From contig JBHIAE010000004.1 in the NCBI GenBank assembly GCA_046758445.1, forward strand, positions 32,001-96,000: a stretch of DNA of 64,000 nucleotides, written 5' to 3'. Positions 55,446-64,000 of the stretch are shown here, piece by piece. Source of the DNA: Candidatus Thorarchaeota archaeon. Lineage in GTDB: Archaea; Asgardarchaeota; Thorarchaeia; Thorarchaeales; Thorarchaeaceae. Every line of letters begins with the position of its first letter. Position 1 is the stretch's first letter. Made by a program: the position numbers and the translations under genes. The notes under the pieces were generated by a model. That model was not told the origin of the DNA, ran no database searches, and worked only from the letters and a program-made list of their open reading frames with translations.

Positions 55446-56342
55446 TCAGATAATGCTACCTGGAGCCTCTCTCCGTTCTCTCATGGCTCTGAACATGGTG
55501 TCTTTCTCTTTGATGACAATCCTGTATTGTCTGAGCATTGACGATAGCGCCCTAGTAGCTAGGACCAGACGGCTCCAGGCGGCCGGAATATCATCGCCGA
55601 TGCTCTGCTGAATCATTACATCAAACCCATGAGGACCGTCGCTTGGAATCCACTGTGCGATGTCTGCCAGCGTGAACAGGTGAGCGCTAACATCTGGATA
55701 GACTCTGTCGTCAAACATCACGTATGGCCGATAGGGCTCTCTGTCAGGATGATCAGCCAATAGCCCAGAACAACTCTCCTTGGTTGCGAAGCCTAGGCCG
55801 TTGATCTCTCGAATAAATGGTCTTATCGACTTGTCTACATATTCTAGAAACTCATCAACAGATTGCGGCTCGTGGTCGGGAGCATCACGGAGTCCAAGAT
55901 GCCACTGTGTTTCGTGATGTGCCCAAACGACCTTGGGAATTGTTCCTTGATCCACCCACTTCATGTAAGGTTTGAGGAGGTCTGTCAATTGATCGAACGC
56001 AGTGAGTAGCCCAAGCCAGGCGTCAGACCTGGCCTTCTTGAGGGTGGTACCGCTGCTAGCTTTGTCGAACTCTGTGGGCCTGTAGATAGCTACATCTCCT
56101 GATTCTCTGAAGACAGGCATCCACAATGCTGAATCTGCAATGGTGAACAGGTGAGCCTCAACGCCCGGATACACCTTATGACCCAGGACAATGTGGGGCA
56201 CGTCATCGTCCTGTGCTCCGAGCCCCAGGTTTATGGTGCGGACTGATTGGCCTGCCTTAAGCATTGTATCAAGTACGTGCCTCTCTTTCACCAAAGGCAT
56301 AGGCCGCCCTCTAGGCCCGATGATAGCCGGGTCTGGTTTCAA
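55446..56342 (-). CDS. Hypothetical protein with an internal duplication and a T..SCSG motif
   Basis: VYPGVEAHLFTIAD...W.P repeated as VYPDVSAHLFTLAD...W.P; D.SIRPFIREIN.LGFATKESCSG. Confidence 0.65.
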   Translation of the reverse strand: MKPDPAIIGPRGRPMPLVKERHVLDTMLKAGQSVRTINLGLGAQDDDVPHIVLGHKVYPGVEAHLFTIADSALWMPVFRESGDVAIYRPTEFDKASSGTTLKKARSDAWLGLLTAFDQLTDLLKPYMKWVDQGTIPKVVWAHHETQWHLGLRDAPDHEPQSVDEFLEYVDKSIRPFIREINGLGFATKESCSGLLADHPDREPYRPYVMFDDRVYPDVSAHLFTLADIAQWIPSDGPHGFDVMIQQSIGDDIPAAWSRLVLATRALSSMLRQYRIVIKEKDTMFRAMRERREAPGSII

Positions 56343-56343
56343 C

Positions 56344-57186
56344 CTATACGTATGTCATCAGATAAAGCAATGCGATGACTCCAAGGAGGATGTAAATCGG
56401 ACTCACCAAGATGACTCTCTTGTCTATCAGGCGAAACTTCCAGAAGATTGCGATTCCAGCGAGGAGATACGCCAGTATCATCGCTTGCATTATCGGCTCC
56501 TGATGCACAAGCATGGACAGAAAGAGGACAATGATTGTGGCAAGAGTCAAAGTCGTTTCATGTTTGAAGCTCTGCCCTACCGTCAGATTCCGTTTGTAGC
56601 CCTTGAAGAGCACAAGATAAAGACACGAGAACCCAATTGCGAAGAGATACGGGAAGCTGAAAAGGTCGCTAGTGATGGTCCATGGAAGGAATATCTTCAA
56701 AGACTGCATGATAAGAACAAGTGGAAGACCTACGACAGTGTGCTTTAGGCGTAAGTTTTCTGAATCCTTCCTACTGGGTAGAGGGGCAGAGTACAAGAGG
56801 TTGACAAGGATCAGACCACTCACGACTCCTAAAAAGAGGAAGCCCAGAATGGTAGATACCAACAGGCCTGTGAACAGATAAAGAAGGCATATCACAACTG
56901 CTTCTGTCCGTTCTACAGATCCACTAGCCAAAGGCTTCCTCGTGATTTTCTCTGTGTCAGTCGCATCTTCTGCAGCATCAAAGAGGTCATTGAAAATATA
57001 GACTGATGAATAGGCGATGATGAATGCGACCAACCCGATCATCATAGGGGCTGTTTCGTATGATATTCGATAGAGGACCAGAAGCAAGACACCAACCGAG
57101 TAGAGTCCTAGGTTCTTTACTAGATTGTCAACTAGGTTTCTGAAGAGCAATGTCTTCTGAATCATTGTAGTAAGTCTCAAGTCCAT
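56344..57186 (-). CDS. UbiA family prenyltransferase
   Basis: YIFNDLFDAAED..D..K..RKPLASG, LLYS.P, RLK; multi-TM. Confidence 0.85.
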   Translation of the reverse strand: MDLRLTTMIQKTLLFRNLVDNLVKNLGLYSVGVLLLVLYRISYETAPMMIGLVAFIIAYSSVYIFNDLFDAAEDATDTEKITRKPLASGSVERTEAVVICLLYLFTGLLVSTILGFLFLGVVSGLILVNLLYSAPLPSRKDSENLRLKHTVVGLPLVLIMQSLKIFLPWTITSDLFSFPYLFAIGFSCLYLVLFKGYKRNLTVGQSFKHETTLTLATIIVLFLSMLVHQEPIMQAMILAYLLAGIAIFWKFRLIDKRVILVSPIYILLGVIALLYLMTYV

Positions 57187-57360
57187 TGTGTCTACCATAG
57201 ACTGGGGGAAACACATCGAAAAAGGCTGTGATTATGTCAGTGATCGACCAGTGGAACCGACTCAGTAATCTTCGCGCATTTCGTGGCTTCCGATCAGATC
57301 CATCTGGAACAACTTGCACGGGAGGGCAGAAACGCATTGTTCGTGAAGAGGGGGGTCACC

Positions 57361-57412
57361 TTAGTCAACAGGCCCACAAGAGTGTTCTCGGGTCCGAGAA
57401 GCTGTTGACTAA
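57361..57412. other. Nested inverted repeat (11-bp outer stem, 7-bp inner stem)
   Basis: TTAGTCAACAG...CTGTTGACTAA enclosing TTCTCGG-gt-CCGAGAA. Confidence 0.6.
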
Positions 57413-57485
57413 CTGAAATGCTCTCAGAGGCAGGGGTACTATGGAATATGATTGGACAGGTCATCAAGGTAGGAGGTGGTCCTAC

Positions 57486-58436
57486 TCAACTCTGTTCATA
57501 TGTAGTGTCTTGAGGCATTGACAGCTCAACAACTACTTTAGTCAAACCCACCCCTGCAAACTTCGTTTCCAGCGCCTTCATGTTGCGACGCAATGAGCGC
57601 TCATAACAGGCATGAACGACGGAGATCGGAGCAATTGCCAGAAACGGAGCCCCAACAATAGAGATAACGGGAACCAGAAGAATGATGACAGGGAATGATT
57701 CCGGAAGAGTGATGGTCTGGTACCATTCAATGGTTCCTATGGCAACGAGTAAGTAGGCAAGGATGGTAGTTATGCCTGCAAAGCCTTTCAATGGCGCAAG
57801 GTACCAGTTCCCGACTCCCTCTATGTCTGCTGTGATGCGTCTTCCGCTGATCTCTTTCTTGCAGATTGCTCCACTGTCCTCGAGAAGCCAGAGAGGGACA
57901 AACAGAAGCGTGACGCCACTGGCTATCAAGATAAGAATGAAGAATATGGGCAGACCCACTTCAATGACTCCAGCCGATTCGTCGAGGTTCCCGAAGCTCT
58001 CGTAAACGAATATGTATCTGGCTACCGACCTGATGTTCGAAACTGCCGTTGCAAGACCTAAAGCGACGAAGGCCGGAACAATGAGTCGTCTGCCTTGACT
58101 TCTCTTTGTGGCCTTTGGGTCTAGTGCTTGCACATAGTATTTGTAGTGGCCCGCTGTCAGGAATCGATGTGCCTTCCAGAAGAGAATTGACAGGCTGGGT
58201 GCCGCCACGTATGTGACCAGACCGGCAACAAAGGAGAATATATAGACCCAGACGAAATCAAACAGAATGTCACCAGGCAGGGGACGATAGAGTCCAGGAG
58301 GGTCGTAAAAGGGGAATATCCTTAGATAGCTGAGCACGACCGCACCAGCCGCCAAGAATAGGACAATTATGTTAGTGAGAACTACGAGTTTCTTAGGAAT
58401 TGCCGGTTCGATTTGATCCTCAGTCAAGACTGTCAC
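57486..58436 (-). CDS. Multi-TM membrane protein of unknown function
   Basis: About 6 hydrophobic segments; PLWLLEDSG and IEGVG.WY motifs. Confidence 0.7.
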   Translation of the reverse strand: MTVLTEDQIEPAIPKKLVVLTNIIVLFLAAGAVVLSYLRIFPFYDPPGLYRPLPGDILFDFVWVYIFSFVAGLVTYVAAPSLSILFWKAHRFLTAGHYKYYVQALDPKATKRSQGRRLIVPAFVALGLATAVSNIRSVARYIFVYESFGNLDESAGVIEVGLPIFFILILIASGVTLLFVPLWLLEDSGAICKKEISGRRITADIEGVGNWYLAPLKGFAGITTILAYLLVAIGTIEWYQTITLPESFPVIILLVPVISIVGAPFLAIAPISVVHACYERSLRRNMKALETKFAGVGLTKVVVELSMPQDTTYEQS

Positions 58437-58504
58437 ATCCTGGACATGAAGCAGTTATCTCCCAGAGCAGTACTTGATTCTTCTGCGCATTGACTCTTGC
58501 TGGT

Positions 58505-59719
58505 TCAGCCTATGTGAACGAACTCAACAGCTCCCTCTTCACAAACGACGGCGCACAAGCCACATCCATCACATTTCTCGTTATTGACGAGTGCTACTCC
58601 TTCTCTCATCTGAATTGCAACGTATCCACCATCGGCACATGCAACGACGCAATCCTTGCAGCCTGTACACTTCTCTTCAATCACCTTGGCAACAAGCGGA
58701 GGGAGCTTGCTGAGAGCCGTCCACGAGGTGATTTTTGGGAGGGCCTTGCCAATCATCGCATCCAGTGTTTCATAGCCAATGCGTTCCATGAACCCTATCA
58801 TTCCGTCAGTCATCTTGCTAATGATTGAAAAACCATGCCACATGACAGCCGTACACACTTGCAGCGTGCTGGCACCGACCATGAGATACTCCACAGCACT
58901 TCTCCAGTCCTCAATGCCTCCAATTCCAGAAATAGGTGTCTTCGGAAGTGCTTTGGCAATCTGAGATACGACTCGAAGCCCTATTGGCCGCACAGCGGGA
59001 CCACAGAGACCCCCGTAGGTGCTGAGCTGTTCATTCTGGTCCAGCCCATAGGCCACTGGGATAGGCGTAGCCGTTTCAACGTCGATGCCTATGAGTGACT
59101 CCACGGTGTTGATGGCTGACAGCCCGTCAGCACCTCCTCTCACAGCTGCCTCAGAAACAGGCACGATGTCTGTGACGTTTGGCGTTAGTTTCACAAGTAT
59201 CGGAAGGTCAGTCCCTTTCTTTGCCGCCCGCGTGACCTGCTCAACCAATGATGGGTTCTGGCCGATGAAAGCACCCATGTGTTCCTCGGGTGAACCATGA
59301 GGACACGAAACATTGAGCTCGATGGCGTCAGCTCCAGTCTGAGACATGGTTTCCGCCAGTGCGGTCCAACCCTCAGGCTCTAGCCCACTCATCATGCTGG
59401 CTACAAATATGAAGTCGTCAGGGGCCTCTCTCTTTATCTTTGGAATCCAGTCTTCAGTCCAAGTAGTCAAGGGCTCGCGAGAGAGAAGCTCGATGTTGTT
59501 CATCCCAATTGGTTTGCCGCTCCTTCGAAGAACACCCAACCGCGTTCGTGGATCAACGGTGGGTTCCTCCGTGACTGTCTTCATGACGGCCCCTCCCCAG
59601 CCGAGTCGAGCGGCTCTCAGGATGTGACGAGCGTCCATCGTAGGGGGCGCGGAGGAAAGCAAGAATGGATTCTTGAAACCAATTCCTGCGAACTCGACTG
59701 ATAAAAGGTTGTCAGACAT
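58505..59719 (-). CDS. preA: NAD-dependent dihydropyrimidine dehydrogenase, FMN/Fe-S subunit
   Basis: NPFLLSSAPPT, GWGGAVMKT, NNIELLS, ELNVSCPHG, KLTPNVTDI, AINTV, GGLCGPAVRPI, C-terminal 2[4Fe-4S] motifs. Confidence 0.9.
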   Translation of the reverse strand: MSDNLLSVEFAGIGFKNPFLLSSAPPTMDARHILRAARLGWGGAVMKTVTEEPTVDPRTRLGVLRRSGKPIGMNNIELLSREPLTTWTEDWIPKIKREAPDDFIFVASMMSGLEPEGWTALAETMSQTGADAIELNVSCPHGSPEEHMGAFIGQNPSLVEQVTRAAKKGTDLPILVKLTPNVTDIVPVSEAAVRGGADGLSAINTVESLIGIDVETATPIPVAYGLDQNEQLSTYGGLCGPAVRPIGLRVVSQIAKALPKTPISGIGGIEDWRSAVEYLMVGASTLQVCTAVMWHGFSIISKMTDGMIGFMERIGYETLDAMIGKALPKITSWTALSKLPPLVAKVIEEKCTGCKDCVVACADGGYVAIQMREGVALVNNEKCDGCGLCAVVCEEGAVEFVHIG

Positions 59720-59900
59720 GAATGATCGCTCCTCCAATCTGAGTTGATGCCACTGCCTCCCCTAAAGTCTTTGTTTATAATCGGGGCCTGTTGAAATGAA
59801 ACCAACTCACGCAGGCATGAAACCAAGATGACAAGGATATTGGATCCGAAAAGAAGGGACTTCTGGACTGGTACGGAGCTGAGTCGTCGACACACAGAAA

Positions 59901-60665
59901 TCAAGGATGCCCAGTTCTGGAAATGGAAAAGAGAAGACCCTCAATACCCTTTACAATCACATTCTTGAACCCGTTCTTCTCCAAGATCATCCGCAGCTGG
60001 TCTTCATCTAGCCCTGGTGGATTCTTTAGGCCAAAGAACTGCTCGAAATAGACTCTTGCAAAGATGTTGTCAGTCTTCTCAATCTCAATTATCACCAGAG
60101 CGCCATTTCCCTTTAGCGCTCCTTTAAGATGGTTAATGCGATTTGTAATCTCGTTCAGCTCGTTTCCCATGAAGCATCCGACACCCAAGAAGCTAACGAC
60201 CATGTCGTAATGGCTACGAATGACAGGCGCGTCTTCCGAAAAGATAAGGTCGTTTCCTGCGAGGACACGTCTTATGCTCTCATGATTCAATGTGCATAGA
60301 ACCCTCTGACGGTGTTTCAGTTGAAGCAGTCCGGTTACGTCTTCCATCACCCTAGCGAGAAGCTGTGACTCGTCATTGCAGAATGTCTTCACCGCATGTA
60401 CAAGATACCCTCTGAGATGTTCTATGCCATACCGAGTTGGAAAGTACACCTTCCTGCGGGTCATTCCCGTTTCCACAGTCTCAAAGTCTATGAGCTCTTT
60501 CTTCTTGAGCGAATCAAGAACTGGATAGATTGTGCCGGGGCTTCTGAGGCCCAGTCTGTCCATCAGTTAAACTCCGCAGAACGGCATTTCCCTGAGAGTC
60601 AAGAGCACTCTTGCTTCAAGTGGACCAGCTATCATCTTTTCGGTGGCTAGCAAGGCATCGCCCAC
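59901..60665 (-). pseudogene. PadR wHTH fused to a methyltransferase-like domain; in-frame TAA at 60567-60569
   Basis: Upstream in-frame sequence MIAGPLEARVLLTLREMPFCGV-stop-LMDRLGLRSPGTIYPVL restores the PadR N-terminal helices. The C-terminal region YDMVVSFLG...LKGNGALVIIE...LEKNGFKNV resembles the second half of a class I MTase fold. Confidence 0.72.
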
Positions 60666-60759: not shown

Positions 60760-62718
60760 ATGAGTTATGTCTATATGAAGGCCCTTGAGTTGGCTCCCGA
60801 GCGATACGATAAGGGAATAAGCTGGCTTGGATGGGGTGGGCTTGATGACATTCGGACCAAGATAGCAGACCTTGCCGAAACAGAAGGAGAGAACGTTCTG
60901 GATATTGGGGTTGGCACTGGCACACAGGTGCTAATGTGTGCTGAACGTGGCTTGAGTGTTGTGGGGATTGACCACTCTCCAGGGATGCTATCAGTTGCCC
61001 GCAAGAAACTAGAAACGATGCATGAAGAGGGGGGAGAGTCCAGTGTAGCTGCGTCCAGAGTCGTGCTGATGCAGAGAGCAGCCGTGGAAATGGATGAGTT
61101 CTCCGAGGAGTCATTTGGGCTAGTTACATCTACTCTAGTCTTCTCAGAACTCTACGAATCAGAACAGAGATACGTCCTCGCCAATGCGTTTCGCATCCTG
61201 AAACCTGGAGGTGCCTTGATACTAGCAGACGAAGTCGTACCTGATAAGAGACTGAAACGCTTCGCTCATGCAATCCTCGCTACGCCCTTGAAGCTCCTAA
61301 CATATCTGCTTACACAGACTAGCACTAAGCCCACTCAGAACTTGGTTAGAAGAGTTGAGGAGGCAGGCTTCGCGATTGAAGAAGTTGAGAAATATCAGCT
61401 CGATTCATTCCAGTTGATTCTCGCTCGTAAGCCAGAGAATCACATCTCAGACCTCGACTCCCATCGCTCATCCGAATCTGGAATCATCGGTCCTCCAAGA
61501 GGTGGCTTCTTGTCCACAGCGTGGCAGACTGCAGCAAGGATGATCGGGCACTCCACAGAGATTGGACTGATTCCGGTGGGCACACCTACTAGGGATAGCC
61601 CAGTTCTCTGCACCTGTAACTTCAATTTGACAGTTCGTCGCCTCGTTGGGCTTCTAGAACGGGAGGAGATAGATGCTTGGATTCTTGTAGCGCCTACGGG
61701 TGGGCACAATGTGTGGTGCGCTTCAGAGGCCGAAGAGTTCAATGCAGGGTCTGTGATCACTGCAATCAAGATCTCCAACTTGGAAGAGTGGGTGGACCAT
61801 CGTAGAATCATTCTCCCCCAACTTGCTGCTCCAGGTGTTGACCCAGGCAGGGTTAGAGAGGTGACAGGATGGAACTGCGTATGGGGCCCGGTCCACATGG
61901 ATGACTTGCCACGCTTTCTCAACGATTTGCCTGGCTCGATTCGGAACAAGACCAAGAGGCAGAGGAGTGTCAGATTCGACCTCAGGGACCGTATTGAGAT
62001 GGCAACAACAGTCTTACTCCCAACATTCTTGATCTTGTTGGTCCCTCTCCTAGTTGTCTTTGTGTTTCTTGATTCATGGGTTTGGGCACTTCCGATCTTT
62101 GCAGAAACTGCGCTCTTCTACTATGGAGTCTTTCTGTTCTGGCCAAGAATCCCAACAAGACTCGGTACAAGGAAGGTCGCCATTTGGACCTTGGTATTCT
62201 TGGTATTCTTGTTCACGATTTCGTGGGTAGTTACAGGCTACCTCGGAATCCCAGTCCCGTCAGCTTCATCCTTTCAGGGGTCCTATGCAATGCTAAACTG
62301 GTTGCCACTTGAGATTCTCGTGCCTGTCCTTGCTATCGCCTTGGCCTATGACGCTGATGGCTCAACACCCAATCAGAGGAGTACTCTGTTCACAAGAGCA
62401 TGGAACACAGGGGAAATCCATGTACGAGAGAGATGGGGGGCTAAACTGGTCACGACACAGTATGGCAAGATAACTGCCGACGTCAAGTCATGTACCGGAT
62501 GCGGCATATGCGTGGATGTCTGTCCGATGCAGATTCTTGGCATGGATGATACCGGCAGGAAGGTTTCCCTCCAAGACCCGGACTCTTGTATCAACTGTCG
62601 TGCCTGCGTGAATCGATGTCCAAATGATTCACTATTTCTGGTACCTGAAACGGAAGCTGGATGGCGAGCGTTTGAGAAACTACAGAATGCACAAAGGCAT
62701 TCCATGAAAGCCGTTTGA
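60760..62718 (+). CDS. Fusion of class I SAM methyltransferase, HgcA-like corrinoid domain, TM helices and HgcB-like 2[4Fe-4S] ferredoxin
   Basis: VLDIGVGTG and RILKPGG (MTase); G.P..DSPVL.T.N..LT, AWILV..T.G.NVWCA, HRRIILPQLAAPGV, WGPV...DLP.FL (HgcA/CdhD-type); about 4 TMs; CTGCGICVDVCP and CINCRACVNRCP. Confidence 0.88.
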   Translation: MSYVYMKALELAPERYDKGISWLGWGGLDDIRTKIADLAETEGENVLDIGVGTGTQVLMCAERGLSVVGIDHSPGMLSVARKKLETMHEEGGESSVAASRVVLMQRAAVEMDEFSEESFGLVTSTLVFSELYESEQRYVLANAFRILKPGGALILADEVVPDKRLKRFAHAILATPLKLLTYLLTQTSTKPTQNLVRRVEEAGFAIEEVEKYQLDSFQLILARKPENHISDLDSHRSSESGIIGPPRGGFLSTAWQTAARMIGHSTEIGLIPVGTPTRDSPVLCTCNFNLTVRRLVGLLEREEIDAWILVAPTGGHNVWCASEAEEFNAGSVITAIKISNLEEWVDHRRIILPQLAAPGVDPGRVREVTGWNCVWGPVHMDDLPRFLNDLPGSIRNKTKRQRSVRFDLRDRIEMATTVLLPTFLILLVPLLVVFVFLDSWVWALPIFAETALFYYGVFLFWPRIPTRLGTRKVAIWTLVFLVFLFTISWVVTGYLGIPVPSASSFQGSYAMLNWLPLEILVPVLAIALAYDADGSTPNQRSTLFTRAWNTGEIHVRERWGAKLVTTQYGKITADVKSCTGCGICVDVCPMQILGMDDTGRKVSLQDPDSCINCRACVNRCPNDSLFLVPETEAGWRAFEKLQNAQRHSMKAV

Positions 62719-62937
62719 GAAAGATCTGCCTAGCTGTCAGAGGACAAAAGAAGAGAAGCAGACTCTTCACATGAAACACAGAACTACGTCTATCATTCAT
62801 ACTGGTGTCGACGTGCTAGGCGGCTTGAACACATGGCGCTCAATGTGAGGCTTCTTAATCATGCTTTTCGCTGACTAACAAAGTCTTTAGGACGGGGGAA
62901 CATGCTGTATACTACTGACAGAGGATTGGTGGGAAGA

Positions 62938-64000
62938 ATGACTGATGACCTGATTCCTGAAGACCTCCGCAAGGAATACACCAAAGAAGAGATTCTAGAG
63001 ATTGAGAAGAAGCATATGGCACCTGCAGTGGCCCACTATTATGAGAATCCTGTCCTACTAGTCCGAGGAGAAGGAGCCACATTGGAGGACAGCTCCGGCA
63101 AGTCCTATATCGACCTCTTCGCGGGCATCTGCACGACAATCACCGGATACTGTCACCCAAAGTATGTTGCTACAATCAATTGGCAGGCCGAGCGGCTGGT
63201 CTACACAAGCTCCATGTATGCCACCATTCCGTATGCGGTTCTTGTGAAACGACTTGCTGAGATAGCTCCGAGGGGCCTCACTCAGTCTTTCATCGTCAAC
63301 AGTGGTTCAGAGGCGAATGAAGCTGCCCTTTTTATGGCACGCAAGTATGTGGGCAATCCCTACATTGTGGCATGCCATCACGCGTATCATGGTCGGACTA
63401 CTCTTGCGAGAGAACTCTCAAGTGCTGGATGGCGCACGGTCCCGGAGAGCCATCCATCGGGCGTGCGTTTTGTTCCATACGGATACTGTTATCGTTGTAG
63501 TTTTGGCAAGGAGTTTCCGGAGTGCGACATAGAGTGTGCCCGTTACCTTCGAGAAGTGATACGTGCAGAGACCAATAGTGCCATTGGGGCTTTCATAGCT
63601 GAACCCATTCAGGGGGTTGGCGGCATCATTCAACCACCTCCGGAGTACTTCCAGATTATTCATGAAATCGTGAAGGAGTATGGAGGACTGTACATCTCTG
63701 ACGAAGTACAGACAGGGTTCGGTCGAACTGGCGGCAAGTGGTGGGGGATACAGCATGCAGATGTGGATCCAGACATCATCACAATGGCAAAGGGCTTTGG
63801 CAGCGGCATTCCAATTGCCGGATTCGTCACTCGTCCTGAGATCGCCGAAGACTATACAATCTCTGACGGTTTCGCCACTTATGGTGGCAATCCTCTGTCC
63901 TGCGCGGCCGCAGTGGCCGTGATAGAGATCATCCAAGAGAGCAACTACTTAGAGAGAGCCACGAAACTGGGGAGTCACCTGAAGAAGAGGCTGGAGTCAC
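62938..64000 (+). CDS. Class III PLP aminotransferase (AGXT2/beta-alanine transaminase-like); 3' end runs off the window
   Basis: Not in the ORF track; translated by hand: YIDLFAGI, CHP, NSGSEANE, AEPIQGVGG, SDEVQTGFGRTG, PDIITMAKG. Confidence 0.92.
   Translation, partial: MTDDLIPEDLRKEYTKEEILEIEKKHMAPAVAHYYENPVLLVRGEGATLEDSSGKSYIDLFAGICTTITGYCHPKYVATINWQAERLVYTSSMYATIPYAVLVKRLAEIAPRGLTQSFIVNSGSEANEAALFMARKYVGNPYIVACHHAYHGRTTLARELSSAGWRTVPESHPSGVRFVPYGYCYRCSFGKEFPECDIECARYLREVIRAETNSAIGAFIAEPIQGVGGIIQPPPEYFQIIHEIVKEYGGLYISDEVQTGFGRTGGKWWGIQHADVDPDIITMAKGFGSGIPIAGFVTRPEIAEDYTISDGFATYGGNPLSCAAAVAVIEIIQESNYLERATKLGSHLKKRLES

What the first reader, a model, noticed from the sequence alone, without database searches (positions are those of the whole stretch)
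60760..62718. Single-chain SAM-methyltransferase / HgcA-like corrinoid / membrane / HgcB-like ferredoxin protein
Seen in sequence: one 652-aa ORF with a Rossmann SAM-MTase (about aa 1-220), a corrinoid domain with the cap-helix motif NVWCA (61708-61722), about 4 TMs and two CX2CX2CX3C motifs. Established: HgcA (N[VI]WCA[AG]GK) plus HgcB methylate mercury; SAM has been reported as the methyl donor; two-part HgcAB fusions exist in some archaea and those tested did not methylate Hg. Here the cap helix reads NVWCASEA, and the C-terminal vicinal cysteines of HgcB are absent. Inference: this is a self-contained membrane methyl relay (SAM to cobalamin to an unknown acceptor, with ferredoxin re-reducing cobalt). 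The fusion is Rosetta-stone evidence that this MTase family partners HgcAB-like proteins, and may point to the native non-mercury function of the family.
Basis: partly seen in the sequence, partly recalled or inferred. Interest (0 to 1): 0.9.

Follow-up and report, generated by a model that had tools for sequence, protein, structure and literature searches.

The report
Single-chain CpaM–HgcAB-like methyl relay protein
This Asgard-archaeal gene fuses a SAM methyltransferase, a vitamin-B12 membrane protein related to the mercury-methylating enzyme, and a ferredoxin into one chain; it is a fused form of a widespread, already catalogued two-gene module whose substrate is unknown.

Summary
Window 60760-62718 (+) is one intact 652-aa ORF. 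It holds a class I SAM methyltransferase, an HgcA-like corrinoid domain with the NVWC cap helix, four TM helices and a 2x[4Fe-4S] ferredoxin.

It is not true HgcA or HgcB; both score below the NCBIfam cut-offs. It passes two curated NCBIfam models: CpaM ("corrinoid protein-associated methyltransferase") and "HgcAB-like fusion protein".

- Across 251 Asgard genomes, 49 of 52 HgcAB-like genes have CpaM fused (12) or directly upstream (37).
- Across 80 loci from many bacterial and archaeal phyla the figure is 75 of 80, plus one ~700 nt upstream.
- Methanococcoides methylutens, a tested non-methylator, also has cpaM overlapping its HgcAB-like gene.

The triple fusion is not unique. About 100 database clusters carry it, in Asgard archaea and in bacteria, and it arose at least twice. 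This genome also carries a two-part and a three-gene version.

The function is untested. The most likely mechanism is SAM to Co(I) to an electrophilic, probably non-mercury, acceptor.

This scan has already reported the CpaM plus HgcAB-like pair in at least 38 other genomes. The single-chain form was not among the notes retrieved. Interest is moderate.

The parts
60760..62718 (+). Whole ORF, 652 aa plus stop: CpaM - HgcA-like corrinoid domain - 4 TM - 2x[4Fe-4S] ferredoxin
   Evidence: Open frame. NCBIfam NF043040 scores 247 bits (cut-off 180) over aa 2-224, and NF043039 scores 356 bits (cut-off 285) over aa 252-625. AF2 mean pLDDT 83, pTM 0.83.
60763..61431 (+). CpaM-type class I SAM methyltransferase domain (aa 2-224)
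   Evidence: Foldseek finds small-molecule Rossmann MTases (CmoA, Coq5, PE N-methyltransferase), TM-score by target 0.73-0.76. Invariant in 53 family members: G50, G52, G54, D71, E10, Y16, D17, E130, E135, E158.
60901..60921 (+). SAM-binding motif I, DIGVGTG (aa 48-54)
   Evidence: G50, G52 and G54 are invariant.
61432..61512 (+). Linker between MTase and corrinoid domain (aa 225-251)
   Evidence: pLDDT below 50 at aa 231-238. This is the position of the gene boundary in the split cpaM / hgcAB-like versions.
61513..61989 (+). HgcA-like corrinoid-binding domain (aa 252-410)
   Evidence: Pfam CdhD aa 266-382. PDB CFeSP large-subunit B12 domain (4djd_C, 2h9a_A), E 6e-20 to 3e-19 with the family profile. 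pLDDT mostly 83-97.
61708..61722 (+). Cap-helix motif NVWCA (aa 317-321); Cys320 is the codon at 61717-61719
   Evidence: NVWC was found in 120 of the 121 homologues, the exception being the 389-aa P0037, and is invariant in A3 and A4. The full motif NVWCASEA does not fit the Hg-MATE true-HgcA motifs quoted.
61981..62346 (+). Membrane domain, four TM helices (aa 408-529)
   Evidence: Hydropathy and AF2 helices 408-436, 440-459, 469-494, 507-529. An even number of helices, with Arg/Lys-rich flanks before TM1 and between TM2 and TM3, puts all three soluble domains on the cytoplasmic side (inference from sequence).
62470..62634 (+). HgcB-like dicluster ferredoxin (aa 571-625); CX2CX2CX3C at nt 62491-62523 and 62587-62619
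   Evidence: All eight Cys are invariant. HgcB model NF040864 scores only 46 bits (cut-off 99). No C-terminal CC.
59901..60635 (-). Divergent PadR-like regulator gene, interrupted by an in-frame TAA at 60567-60569; possible local regulator
   Evidence: Pfam PadR on the 220-aa ORF 59901-60563. Read-through translation shows the wHTH continuing upstream of the TAA. Its role is inferred from position only.

Best explanation
The gene encodes a single-chain version of the CpaM + HgcAB-like module. The likely cycle has four steps.

1. The C-terminal dicluster ferredoxin domain reduces the cobalamin held by the HgcA-like domain to Co(I).
2. The N-terminal CpaM domain binds SAM and presents its methyl group to Co(I), giving CH3-Co(III) with Cys320 of the cap helix as the lower ligand.
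3. The methyl group then passes to an electrophilic acceptor at the cytoplasmic face of the four-helix membrane domain. This acceptor is most likely a soft metal(loid) or another membrane-associated electrophile, and probably not Hg(II).
4. The cofactor is re-reduced.

Shown here: the architecture, the family membership, the near-obligatory and repeatedly fused CpaM/HgcA-like partnership, and conservation of the SAM-binding, cap-helix Cys and cluster Cys residues. Inferred: every chemical step and the acceptor.
For: (1) Curated family matches over cut-off for both halves.

(2) Partnership. Among 52 over-cut-off HgcAB-like genes in 251 Asgard genomes, 12 are in one frame with CpaM, 37 have cpaM immediately upstream on the same strand, and 3 are undetermined at contig ends. 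Among 80 loci from many phyla, 11 are fused, 64 adjacent, 1 about 700 nt upstream, 3 at contig edges and 1 has none. cpaM overlaps the HgcAB-like start by 4 nt in M. methylutens and ends 4 nt before it in T. argininiproducens.

(3) No other neighbour is conserved. The next most frequent are ArsR in 8 of 82 loci, an ABC-2 exporter in 7 of 82 and TetR in 5 of 82. The functional unit is therefore just these two parts.

(4) Fusion arose more than once. An AU test on 379 columns rejects a single clade of all triple fusions (p = 3e-7). Separate double fusions (MTase-HgcA-like without ferredoxin) exist in Anaerolineae and Asgard.

(5) This genome holds three paralogous sets: triple fusion, MTase-HgcA-like plus separate ferredoxin, and three separate genes. 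Each has its own CpaM-like partner with a matching score tier, which suggests co-diversification.

(6) SAM motif I, the motif II Asp, NVWC and the eight cluster Cys are invariant.

(7) AF2 pTM of 0.83 for a 652-aa multidomain chain. Complex prediction of the CpaM domain against the corrinoid domain gave weak support: score 0.37, best control 0.00, runs agreeing in at least 70% of contacts, partner pLDDT at least 68. In calibration the mark was reached by 58 of 80 solved complexes and 2 of 110 mismatches. Passes at 0.60 or under are weak, so this is more often wrong than right unless the guess was likely beforehand.

(8) Published biochemistry shows purified HgcAB forming methylcob(III)alamin from SAM with Cys ligation (PMC11588087).

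(9) The genome uses cobamides: eight B12-binding-domain matches over cut-off and a PduO-type adenosyltransferase.
Against: There is no biochemical datum for any CpaM or HgcAB-like protein. I know of no class I Rossmann SAM methyltransferase that methylates a protein-bound corrinoid (own knowledge, not a search result). Purified HgcAB used SAM without an added MTase, so a dedicated MTase may not be needed for that step. The complex prediction is only weak support. The acceptor is unknown, and the neighbourhoods (ArsR, TetR, PadR, exporters, a P1B ATPase in Thermococcus) hint at stress or detoxification only loosely. CobS and CbiB were not found in this 92.7%-complete genome, so the cofactor would have to be imported.
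Confidence: 0.55

Rival explanations
1. Sequential pathway rather than relay. The corrinoid/Fe-S/membrane part performs a reduction, such as reductive dehalogenation or reduction of a metalloid oxyanion, and the CpaM domain then methylates the product directly from SAM. Cobalamin never carries the methyl group.
For: The CpaM domain looks like ordinary small-molecule MTases (CmoA, Coq5, PE N-MTase, ArsM-like). A 2026 preprint reports halomethane dehalogenation by Hg methylators and heterologous HgcAB (10.64898/2026.04.26.720869). Corrinoid plus 2x[4Fe-4S] is also the cofactor set of reductive dehalogenases (own knowledge).
Against: The tight 1:1 coupling, translational overlap and repeated covalent fusion directly N-terminal to the corrinoid domain fit a physical complex better than two pathway steps. 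The invariant Cys-on cap helix is the feature tied to methyl transfer in HgcA. The MTase domain has a single Cys (C60), so it lacks the ArsM cysteine triad.
Confidence: 0.15
2. SAM plus ferredoxin serve only for reductive reactivation of oxidised Co(II), as in methionine synthase. The catalytic methyl donor or substrate is something else, such as a methylated compound or methyl-pterin.
For: Reductive methylation by SAM plus a low-potential electron donor is the established repair route for MetH (own knowledge; discussed in PMC11588087). The protein combines exactly those two inputs.
Against: There is no MT1/MT2-type TIM-barrel methyltransferase domain in the protein, and none is a conserved neighbour in 82 loci. 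Carrying a whole dedicated MTase in 1:1 stoichiometry, often fused, is expensive for an occasional repair function.
Confidence: 0.15
3. It is a genuine mercury methylase, a functional HgcAB orthologue with a built-in methyl-loading domain.
For: It shares the NVWC cap helix, a membrane domain and a dicluster ferredoxin with HgcAB. Foldseek matches the HgcAB integrative model 9a0b at 27% identity.
Against: HgcA model NF040863 scores 138 bits against a 275 cut-off, and HgcB NF040864 scores 46 against 99. The cap helix NVWCASEA is not among the accepted motifs. The HgcB C-terminal CC is absent. Both cultured carriers of HgcAB-like fusions that were tested made no MeHg, and one of them, M. methylutens, has the cpaM partner.
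Confidence: 0.05
4. Assembly or frameshift artefact that joins separate cpaM and hgcAB-like genes, or a decaying pseudogene.
For: Most family members are two genes. The divergent PadR gene next door carries an in-frame stop.
Against: More than 30 independent full-length homologues share the same single frame, including other species of the same GTDB family, with open frames of 645-672 aa. All catalytic motifs are intact.
Confidence: 0.02

Closest known systems
CpaM + HgcAB-like fusion protein module (NCBIfam NF043040 + NF043039); the 'fused HgcAB' of Podar 2015, Gilmour 2018 and Lin 2023, e.g. Methanococcoides methylutens, Thermococcus, Kosmotoga
   Same: Both halves pass the curated cut-offs. 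The domain order is the same as the gene order cpaM then hgcAB-like. The NVWC cap helix, membrane domain and dicluster ferredoxin are the same.
   Different: Here the MTase is covalently joined, giving three parts in one chain (652 aa) instead of two genes. The ferredoxin follows a longer post-TM linker and ends in an extra C-terminal helix. The window protein is only 30-38% identical to the two-gene forms.
HgcA/HgcB mercury methylation proteins (NF040863, NF040864; P. mercurii ND132)
   Same: A corrinoid domain of the CdhD/CFeSP type with a Cys-bearing cap helix, a C-terminal membrane domain and a 2x[4Fe-4S] partner. SAM is reported as the methyl source for HgcAB (PMC11588087).
   Different: Scores are far below both cut-offs. 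The cap helix reads NVWCASEA rather than N(V/I)WC(A/S)(A/G/S)GK. There is no C-terminal Cys pair. HgcAB has no dedicated MTase. Tested relatives of this family do not make MeHg.
Corrinoid iron-sulfur protein large subunit (AcsC/CdhE; PDB 4djd_C, 2h9a_A)
   Same: Homologous B12-binding Rossmann-like domain.
   Different: Only the C-terminal B12 domain is shared. There is no N-terminal [4Fe-4S] or TIM-barrel domain, the protein is membrane-anchored, the methyl source is probably SAM rather than methyl-H4folate/H4MPT, and it is not in an ACDS operon (NF003195: 87 bits against 306).
Methionine synthase (MetH) reactivation: SAM plus reduced flavodoxin giving CH3-Co(III)
   Same: The same inputs (SAM, a low-potential electron and a protein-bound cobalamin) are combined in one modular chain. 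This is a mechanistic analogy from established knowledge.
   Different: The SAM-binding fold is unrelated (class I Rossmann here). Here SAM is probably the turnover donor, not a repair reagent.

Membership tests
HgcAB-like fusion protein (NCBIfam NF043039) | Whole-protein score over the curated cut-off (285 bits) | tested here: met
   356.4 bits, aa 252-625, profile 2-349 of 350
HgcAB-like fusion protein (NCBIfam NF043039) | One chain with a corrinoid domain bearing the NVWC cap helix, TM helices and two CX2CX2CX3C motifs | tested here: met
CpaM, corrinoid protein-associated methyltransferase (NCBIfam NF043040) | Score over the curated cut-off (180 bits), with intact SAM motifs | tested here: met
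   247.3 bits, aa 2-224; DIGVGTG and D71 conserved
CpaM, corrinoid protein-associated methyltransferase (NCBIfam NF043040) | Encoded with an HgcA(B)-like corrinoid protein | tested here: met
   Fused in the same frame. The general rule was checked in 52 Asgard and 80 cross-phylum loci.
CpaM + HgcAB-like module | SAM-dependent methylation of the bound corrinoid, with a defined acceptor | not testable with these tools
   No biochemical report was found. Complex prediction gave weak support only.
HgcA, mercury methylation corrinoid protein (NF040863) | Score over the cut-off (275 bits) | tested here: not met
   137.9 bits
HgcA, mercury methylation corrinoid protein (NF040863) | Cap-helix motif NVWCAAGK or an accepted variant (NVWCASGK, NVWCAGGK, NIWCAAGK, NIWCAGGK, NVWCSAGK) | tested here: not met
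   The motif reads NVWCASEA; the accepted list is from PMC10087281
HgcB, mercury methylation ferredoxin (NF040864) | Score over the cut-off (99 bits) and a C-terminal vicinal Cys pair | tested here: not met
   46.1 bits; no CC in the last 30 residues, and the only Cys after aa 373 are the eight cluster ligands
ACDS / CFeSP gamma subunit (NF003195, Pfam CdhD) | Full-length match including the N-terminal cluster and TIM-barrel parts | tested here: not met
   Only profile positions 268-382 of 387 (Pfam) and 324-445 of 450 (NF003195, 87 bits against 306) match
Arsenite methyltransferase ArsM | Family score and the conserved As(III)-binding cysteines | tested here: not met
   NF008823 scores 41 bits against 263; the MTase domain has a single Cys, C60

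The most novel reading that the evidence does not exclude
CpaM is a new kind of enzyme: a class I Rossmann SAM methyltransferase whose substrate is the Co(I) of a protein-bound cobalamin. On this reading the CpaM/HgcA-like machine is the ancestral SAM-driven 'methyl carbanion/radical' donor for electrophilic metal(loid)s or membrane compounds, and mercury methylation by HgcAB is a side branch of it. The single-chain Asgard form would then be the simplest natural object in which to prove the whole cycle and find the native acceptor.
Probability: 0.4. Interest if true: 0.7.

Novelty: new variant of a known kind. Interest (0 to 1): 0.4.

Why it matters
The native role of HgcAB and its 'fused' sister family is a long-standing open question in mercury biogeochemistry. 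The 2024 report that SAM is the methyl donor for HgcAB was described by its authors as unexpected. The near-obligatory pairing of the sister family with a dedicated SAM methyltransferase, and its repeated fusion to one, is independent comparative-genomic support for SAM-to-corrinoid loading across the superfamily. In the papers I could search, this pairing appears only as a database name (CpaM) and as a passing 'ubiE' neighbour note. A one-polypeptide version with all three activities is a convenient target for expression, spectroscopy and cryo-EM. It also matters for metagenomic hgcA surveys: these genes should not be counted as mercury methylators, and an adjacent or fused CpaM is a simple flag for that.

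Tried and rejected
- **True HgcAB orthology:** rejected on NCBIfam scores, cap-helix motif and the missing CC tail.
- **ArsM-like arsenite methylation by the MTase domain:** rejected, with one Cys only and a low score.
- **In-frame TGA in the paralogue on contig C11 as selenocysteine:** rejected. The TGA sits at the end of the MTase-HgcA-like ORF, and an ATG-started 108-aa ferredoxin ORF follows 6 nt later, so it is an ordinary stop.
- **Conserved third partner genes:** none was found in 82 loci.
- **Single origin of all triple fusions:** not rejected on the 163-column corrinoid domain alone (AU p = 0.30), but rejected on 379 columns (p = 3e-7). The group was defined by architecture, though I had seen a first tree beforehand.
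- **Profile search of solved structures:** gave only CFeSP B12 domains and polyferredoxins.
- **Foldseek on the whole model:** gave generic MTases.
- **Model coordinates:** not exposed, so the SAM-to-cap-helix distance could not be measured.
- **Complex prediction:** two calls failed because the machine was busy. The third returned 'weak support'.
- **Kosmotoga pacifica:** The look-up of encoding contigs had no record for its protein.
- **Literature searches for CpaM or an MTase fused to HgcAB:** no paper describing it was found.
Full report
**Observation.** Window 60760-62718 on the + strand is a single open frame of 652 codons. Pfam places a class I methyltransferase domain at aa 46-155, a CdhD-type corrinoid domain at aa 266-382 and two 4Fe-4S motifs at aa 571-624. 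The cap-helix string NVWCASEA starts at aa 317, so NVWCA lies at nt 61708-61722. The two CX2CX2CX3C motifs start at aa 578 and 610. The tail has no vicinal cysteines. Hydropathy and an AlphaFold2 model (mean pLDDT 83, pTM 0.83) both give four TM helices, at aa 408-436, 440-459, 469-494 and 507-529. With four helices and Arg/Lys-rich cytoplasmic flanks, the MTase, corrinoid and ferredoxin domains should all face the cytoplasm; this is inferred from the sequence.

**What it is.** NCBIfam already has curated models for both halves. NF043040, 'corrinoid protein-associated methyltransferase CpaM', scores 247 bits against a cut-off of 180 over aa 2-224. NF043039, 'HgcAB-like fusion protein', scores 356 bits against 285 over aa 252-625. 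The true mercury-methylation models fail: HgcA scores 138 against 275 and HgcB 46 against 99. The cap helix is not one of the motifs accepted for true HgcA (PMC10087281). The protein is therefore a covalent fusion of the two components of a catalogued module, not an HgcAB orthologue.

**How general is the partnership?**
- I searched 251 genomes of the window's phylum (Asgard archaea) with both models and compared coordinates.
  - Of 52 HgcAB-like genes over cut-off, 12 share one open frame with CpaM. Six are in the window's GTDB family with open frames of 645-672 aa, and six are in another genus at about 600 aa.
  - A further 37 have a separate 218-290-aa frame carrying cpaM directly upstream on the same strand.
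  - The remaining 3 are undetermined, at contig ends or without a hit.
- A scan of GTDB species genomes found 354 relatives of the HgcAB-like part. The best 80 loci span Asgard and other archaeal groups, Chloroflexota, Acidobacteriota, Myxococcota, Planctomycetota, Nitrospirota and others.
  - With an HMM built from CpaM domains, 11 are fused, 64 have cpaM directly upstream, one has it about 700 nt upstream, three sit at contig edges and one has none.
- In Methanococcoides methylutens, one of the two cultured 'fused hgcAB' organisms shown not to make methylmercury (PMC5893877), a 216-aa CpaM (269 bits) overlaps the HgcAB-like start by 4 nt.
- In Thermococcus argininiproducens the pair lies behind an ArsR/SmtB regulator, a Cd/Zn/Hg/Pb-type P1B ATPase and a PEMT-like membrane methyltransferase.
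- No other neighbour is conserved. ArsR occurs in 8 of 82 loci, an ABC-2 exporter in 7 and TetR in 5.

**How special is the triple fusion?** Not very. The word-indexed search returned about 30 full-length Asgard homologues at 53-81% identity. These come from Thor-, Hel- and Hodarchaeota and 'Promethearchaeota', and several are already labelled 'HgcAB-like fusion protein' by NCBI. It also returned about 60 bacterial triple fusions of roughly 590 aa at 31-36% identity (Marinimicrobia, Calditrichaeota, Desulfobacteraceae), plus roughly 540-aa MTase-HgcA-like double fusions without ferredoxin, labelled CpaM in Anaerolineae. The exhaustive search of 50%-identity representatives found 146 clusters at E <= 1e-30, about six of them full-length triple fusions. 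NVWC, the SAM motif and all eight cluster cysteines are invariant.

**Origins of the fusion.** On trees of the HgcA-like part, the triple fusions fall in three groups. These are the window's Thor-type clade, the bacterial clade, and a roughly 600-aa Asgard clade nested with 96% SH-aLRT support among two-gene Asgard forms. A single clade of all triple fusions is not rejected on 163 columns (AU p = 0.30). It is rejected on 379 columns (p = 3e-7). The fusion therefore arose, or was lost, at least twice.

**A fusion series in one genome.** The window's own assembly is 3.25 Mb and 92.7% complete. It carries three paralogous sets:
- the triple fusion described here;
- on contig C11, a 579-aa MTase-HgcA-like fusion followed after a TGA stop by a 108-aa ferredoxin that does end in a ...KCCSD cysteine pair;
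- on contig C1, three separate genes: cpaM of 218 aa, an HgcA-like gene of 327 aa that overlaps cpaM by 4 nt, and a 74-aa ferredoxin gene.

None reaches the true-HgcA cut-off. Each HgcA-like paralogue has a CpaM-like partner in its own score tier. The same tiers recur across Asgard genomes, and the C11 type alone has about 60 close Asgard relatives annotated only as 'methyltransferase domain-containing protein'. This pattern suggests the two parts diversified together.

**Mechanism.** Ferredoxin reduces cobalamin to Co(I). CpaM delivers the SAM methyl to give CH3-Co(III) on the Cys320 cap helix. The methyl then leaves to an acceptor at the membrane domain.
  - the obligatory, translationally coupled and repeatedly fused partnership;
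  - the conserved catalytic residues;
  - a confident single-chain fold;
  - a weakly supportive complex prediction between the CpaM and corrinoid domains. It scored 0.37 against 0.00 for the best control, and passes at this level are weak by the tool's own calibration.
- Support from the literature: purified HgcAB makes methylcob(III)alamin from SAM with Cys ligation (PMC11588087).
- The organism is a cobamide user, with eight B12-binding-domain matches over cut-off and a PduO-type adenosyltransferase. CobS and CbiB were not found, so it probably imports corrinoids.
- None of the chemical steps is shown. The acceptor is unknown, and mercury is unlikely.
- The rivals cannot be excluded. They are a reduction-then-methylation pathway, a MetH-like repair role for SAM, and true Hg methylation.

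**Comparison with what is known, and novelty.**
- Fused HgcAB proteins have been known since Podar 2015.
- Lin et al. 2023 placed Thor- and Lokiarchaeota sequences in the fused-HgcAB clade but trimmed the first 327 alignment columns as 'poorly aligned' (PMC10083202). In the fused members, the MTase domain occupies the N-terminal ~230 aa.
- Villar et al. drew a 'UbiE methyltransferase' next to Nitrospina hgcA-like genes (10.1101/648329).
- I found no paper that names CpaM or discusses an MTase fused to HgcA(B)-like proteins. The link exists as an NCBIfam family name.
- This scan has itself reported the CpaM + HgcAB-like pair in at least 38 other genomes, with the same verdict of catalogued module and unknown substrate. 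The single-chain form was not among the notes retrieved.

I therefore class the finding as a fused architectural variant of a known, uncharacterised module.

**Verdict.** The finding has moderate interest, mainly as a convenient one-polypeptide target for finally testing what this family does. It is also a reminder that such genes should not be scored as mercury methylators.

Noticed in passing
own genome outside the window: G000:C11:58717-60789 (L002:730-2802) and G000:C1:171083-172955 (L010:509-2145, L005:1447-1671): Two further CpaM/HgcA-like/ferredoxin sets lie in the same genome. One is a 579-aa MTase-HgcA-like fusion plus a separate 108-aa ferredoxin ending in ...KCCSD. The other is three separate genes of 218, 327 and 74 aa. 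With the window's gene, the genome shows all three architectures.
   Followed up: partly
window 59901-60635 (-): The divergent PadR-like gene has an in-frame TAA at 60567-60569 inside the winged helix (…REMPFCGV*LMDRL…). It is either a pseudogene, a sequencing error, or only the downstream 220-aa ORF is made.
   Followed up: partly
own genome (G000), whole assembly: No CobS (PF02654) or CbiB/CobD (PF03186) match was found in the 92.7%-complete assembly. There are eight B12-binding-domain matches over the cut-off and a PduO-type adenosyltransferase. The organism looks like a cobamide importer rather than a producer.
   Followed up: partly
L108:277-6174 (Thermococcus argininiproducens CP080572.1): Here cpaM + hgcAB-like lies in one same-strand run with an ArsR/SmtB metalloregulator, a Cd/Zn/Hg/Pb-type P1B ATPase and a PEMT/ICMT-like membrane methyltransferase. 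An unknown 298-aa protein, DUF302 and a second P-type ATPase follow. This is a heavy-metal-type neighbourhood.
   Followed up: partly
G189:C684:3102-4160 and G198:C66:4340-5392 (Asgard genomes): Two HgcAB-like genes that score over the cut-off carry one in-frame stop each, TGA and TAG respectively. These could be pseudogenes, sequencing errors or recoded codons. I did not look at them.
   Followed up: no
L031 (CAYWBC010000305.1, 1768 bp, labelled uncultured Bacteroidales): This short contig, binned as Bacteroidales, encodes a Thor-type triple fusion (52% identity to the window protein) cut at the contig end. It is probably a mis-binned Asgard contig.
   Followed up: no
window 55446-59737 and 62902-63999: The flanking genes are a PreA/DHODH-like flavoprotein with a 2x[4Fe-4S] tail (58505-59737, -), a UbiA prenyltransferase (56344-57216, -), two ORFs with no Pfam match, and a class III aminotransferase (62902 onward, +). 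None of them recurs next to homologues elsewhere.
   Followed up: partly
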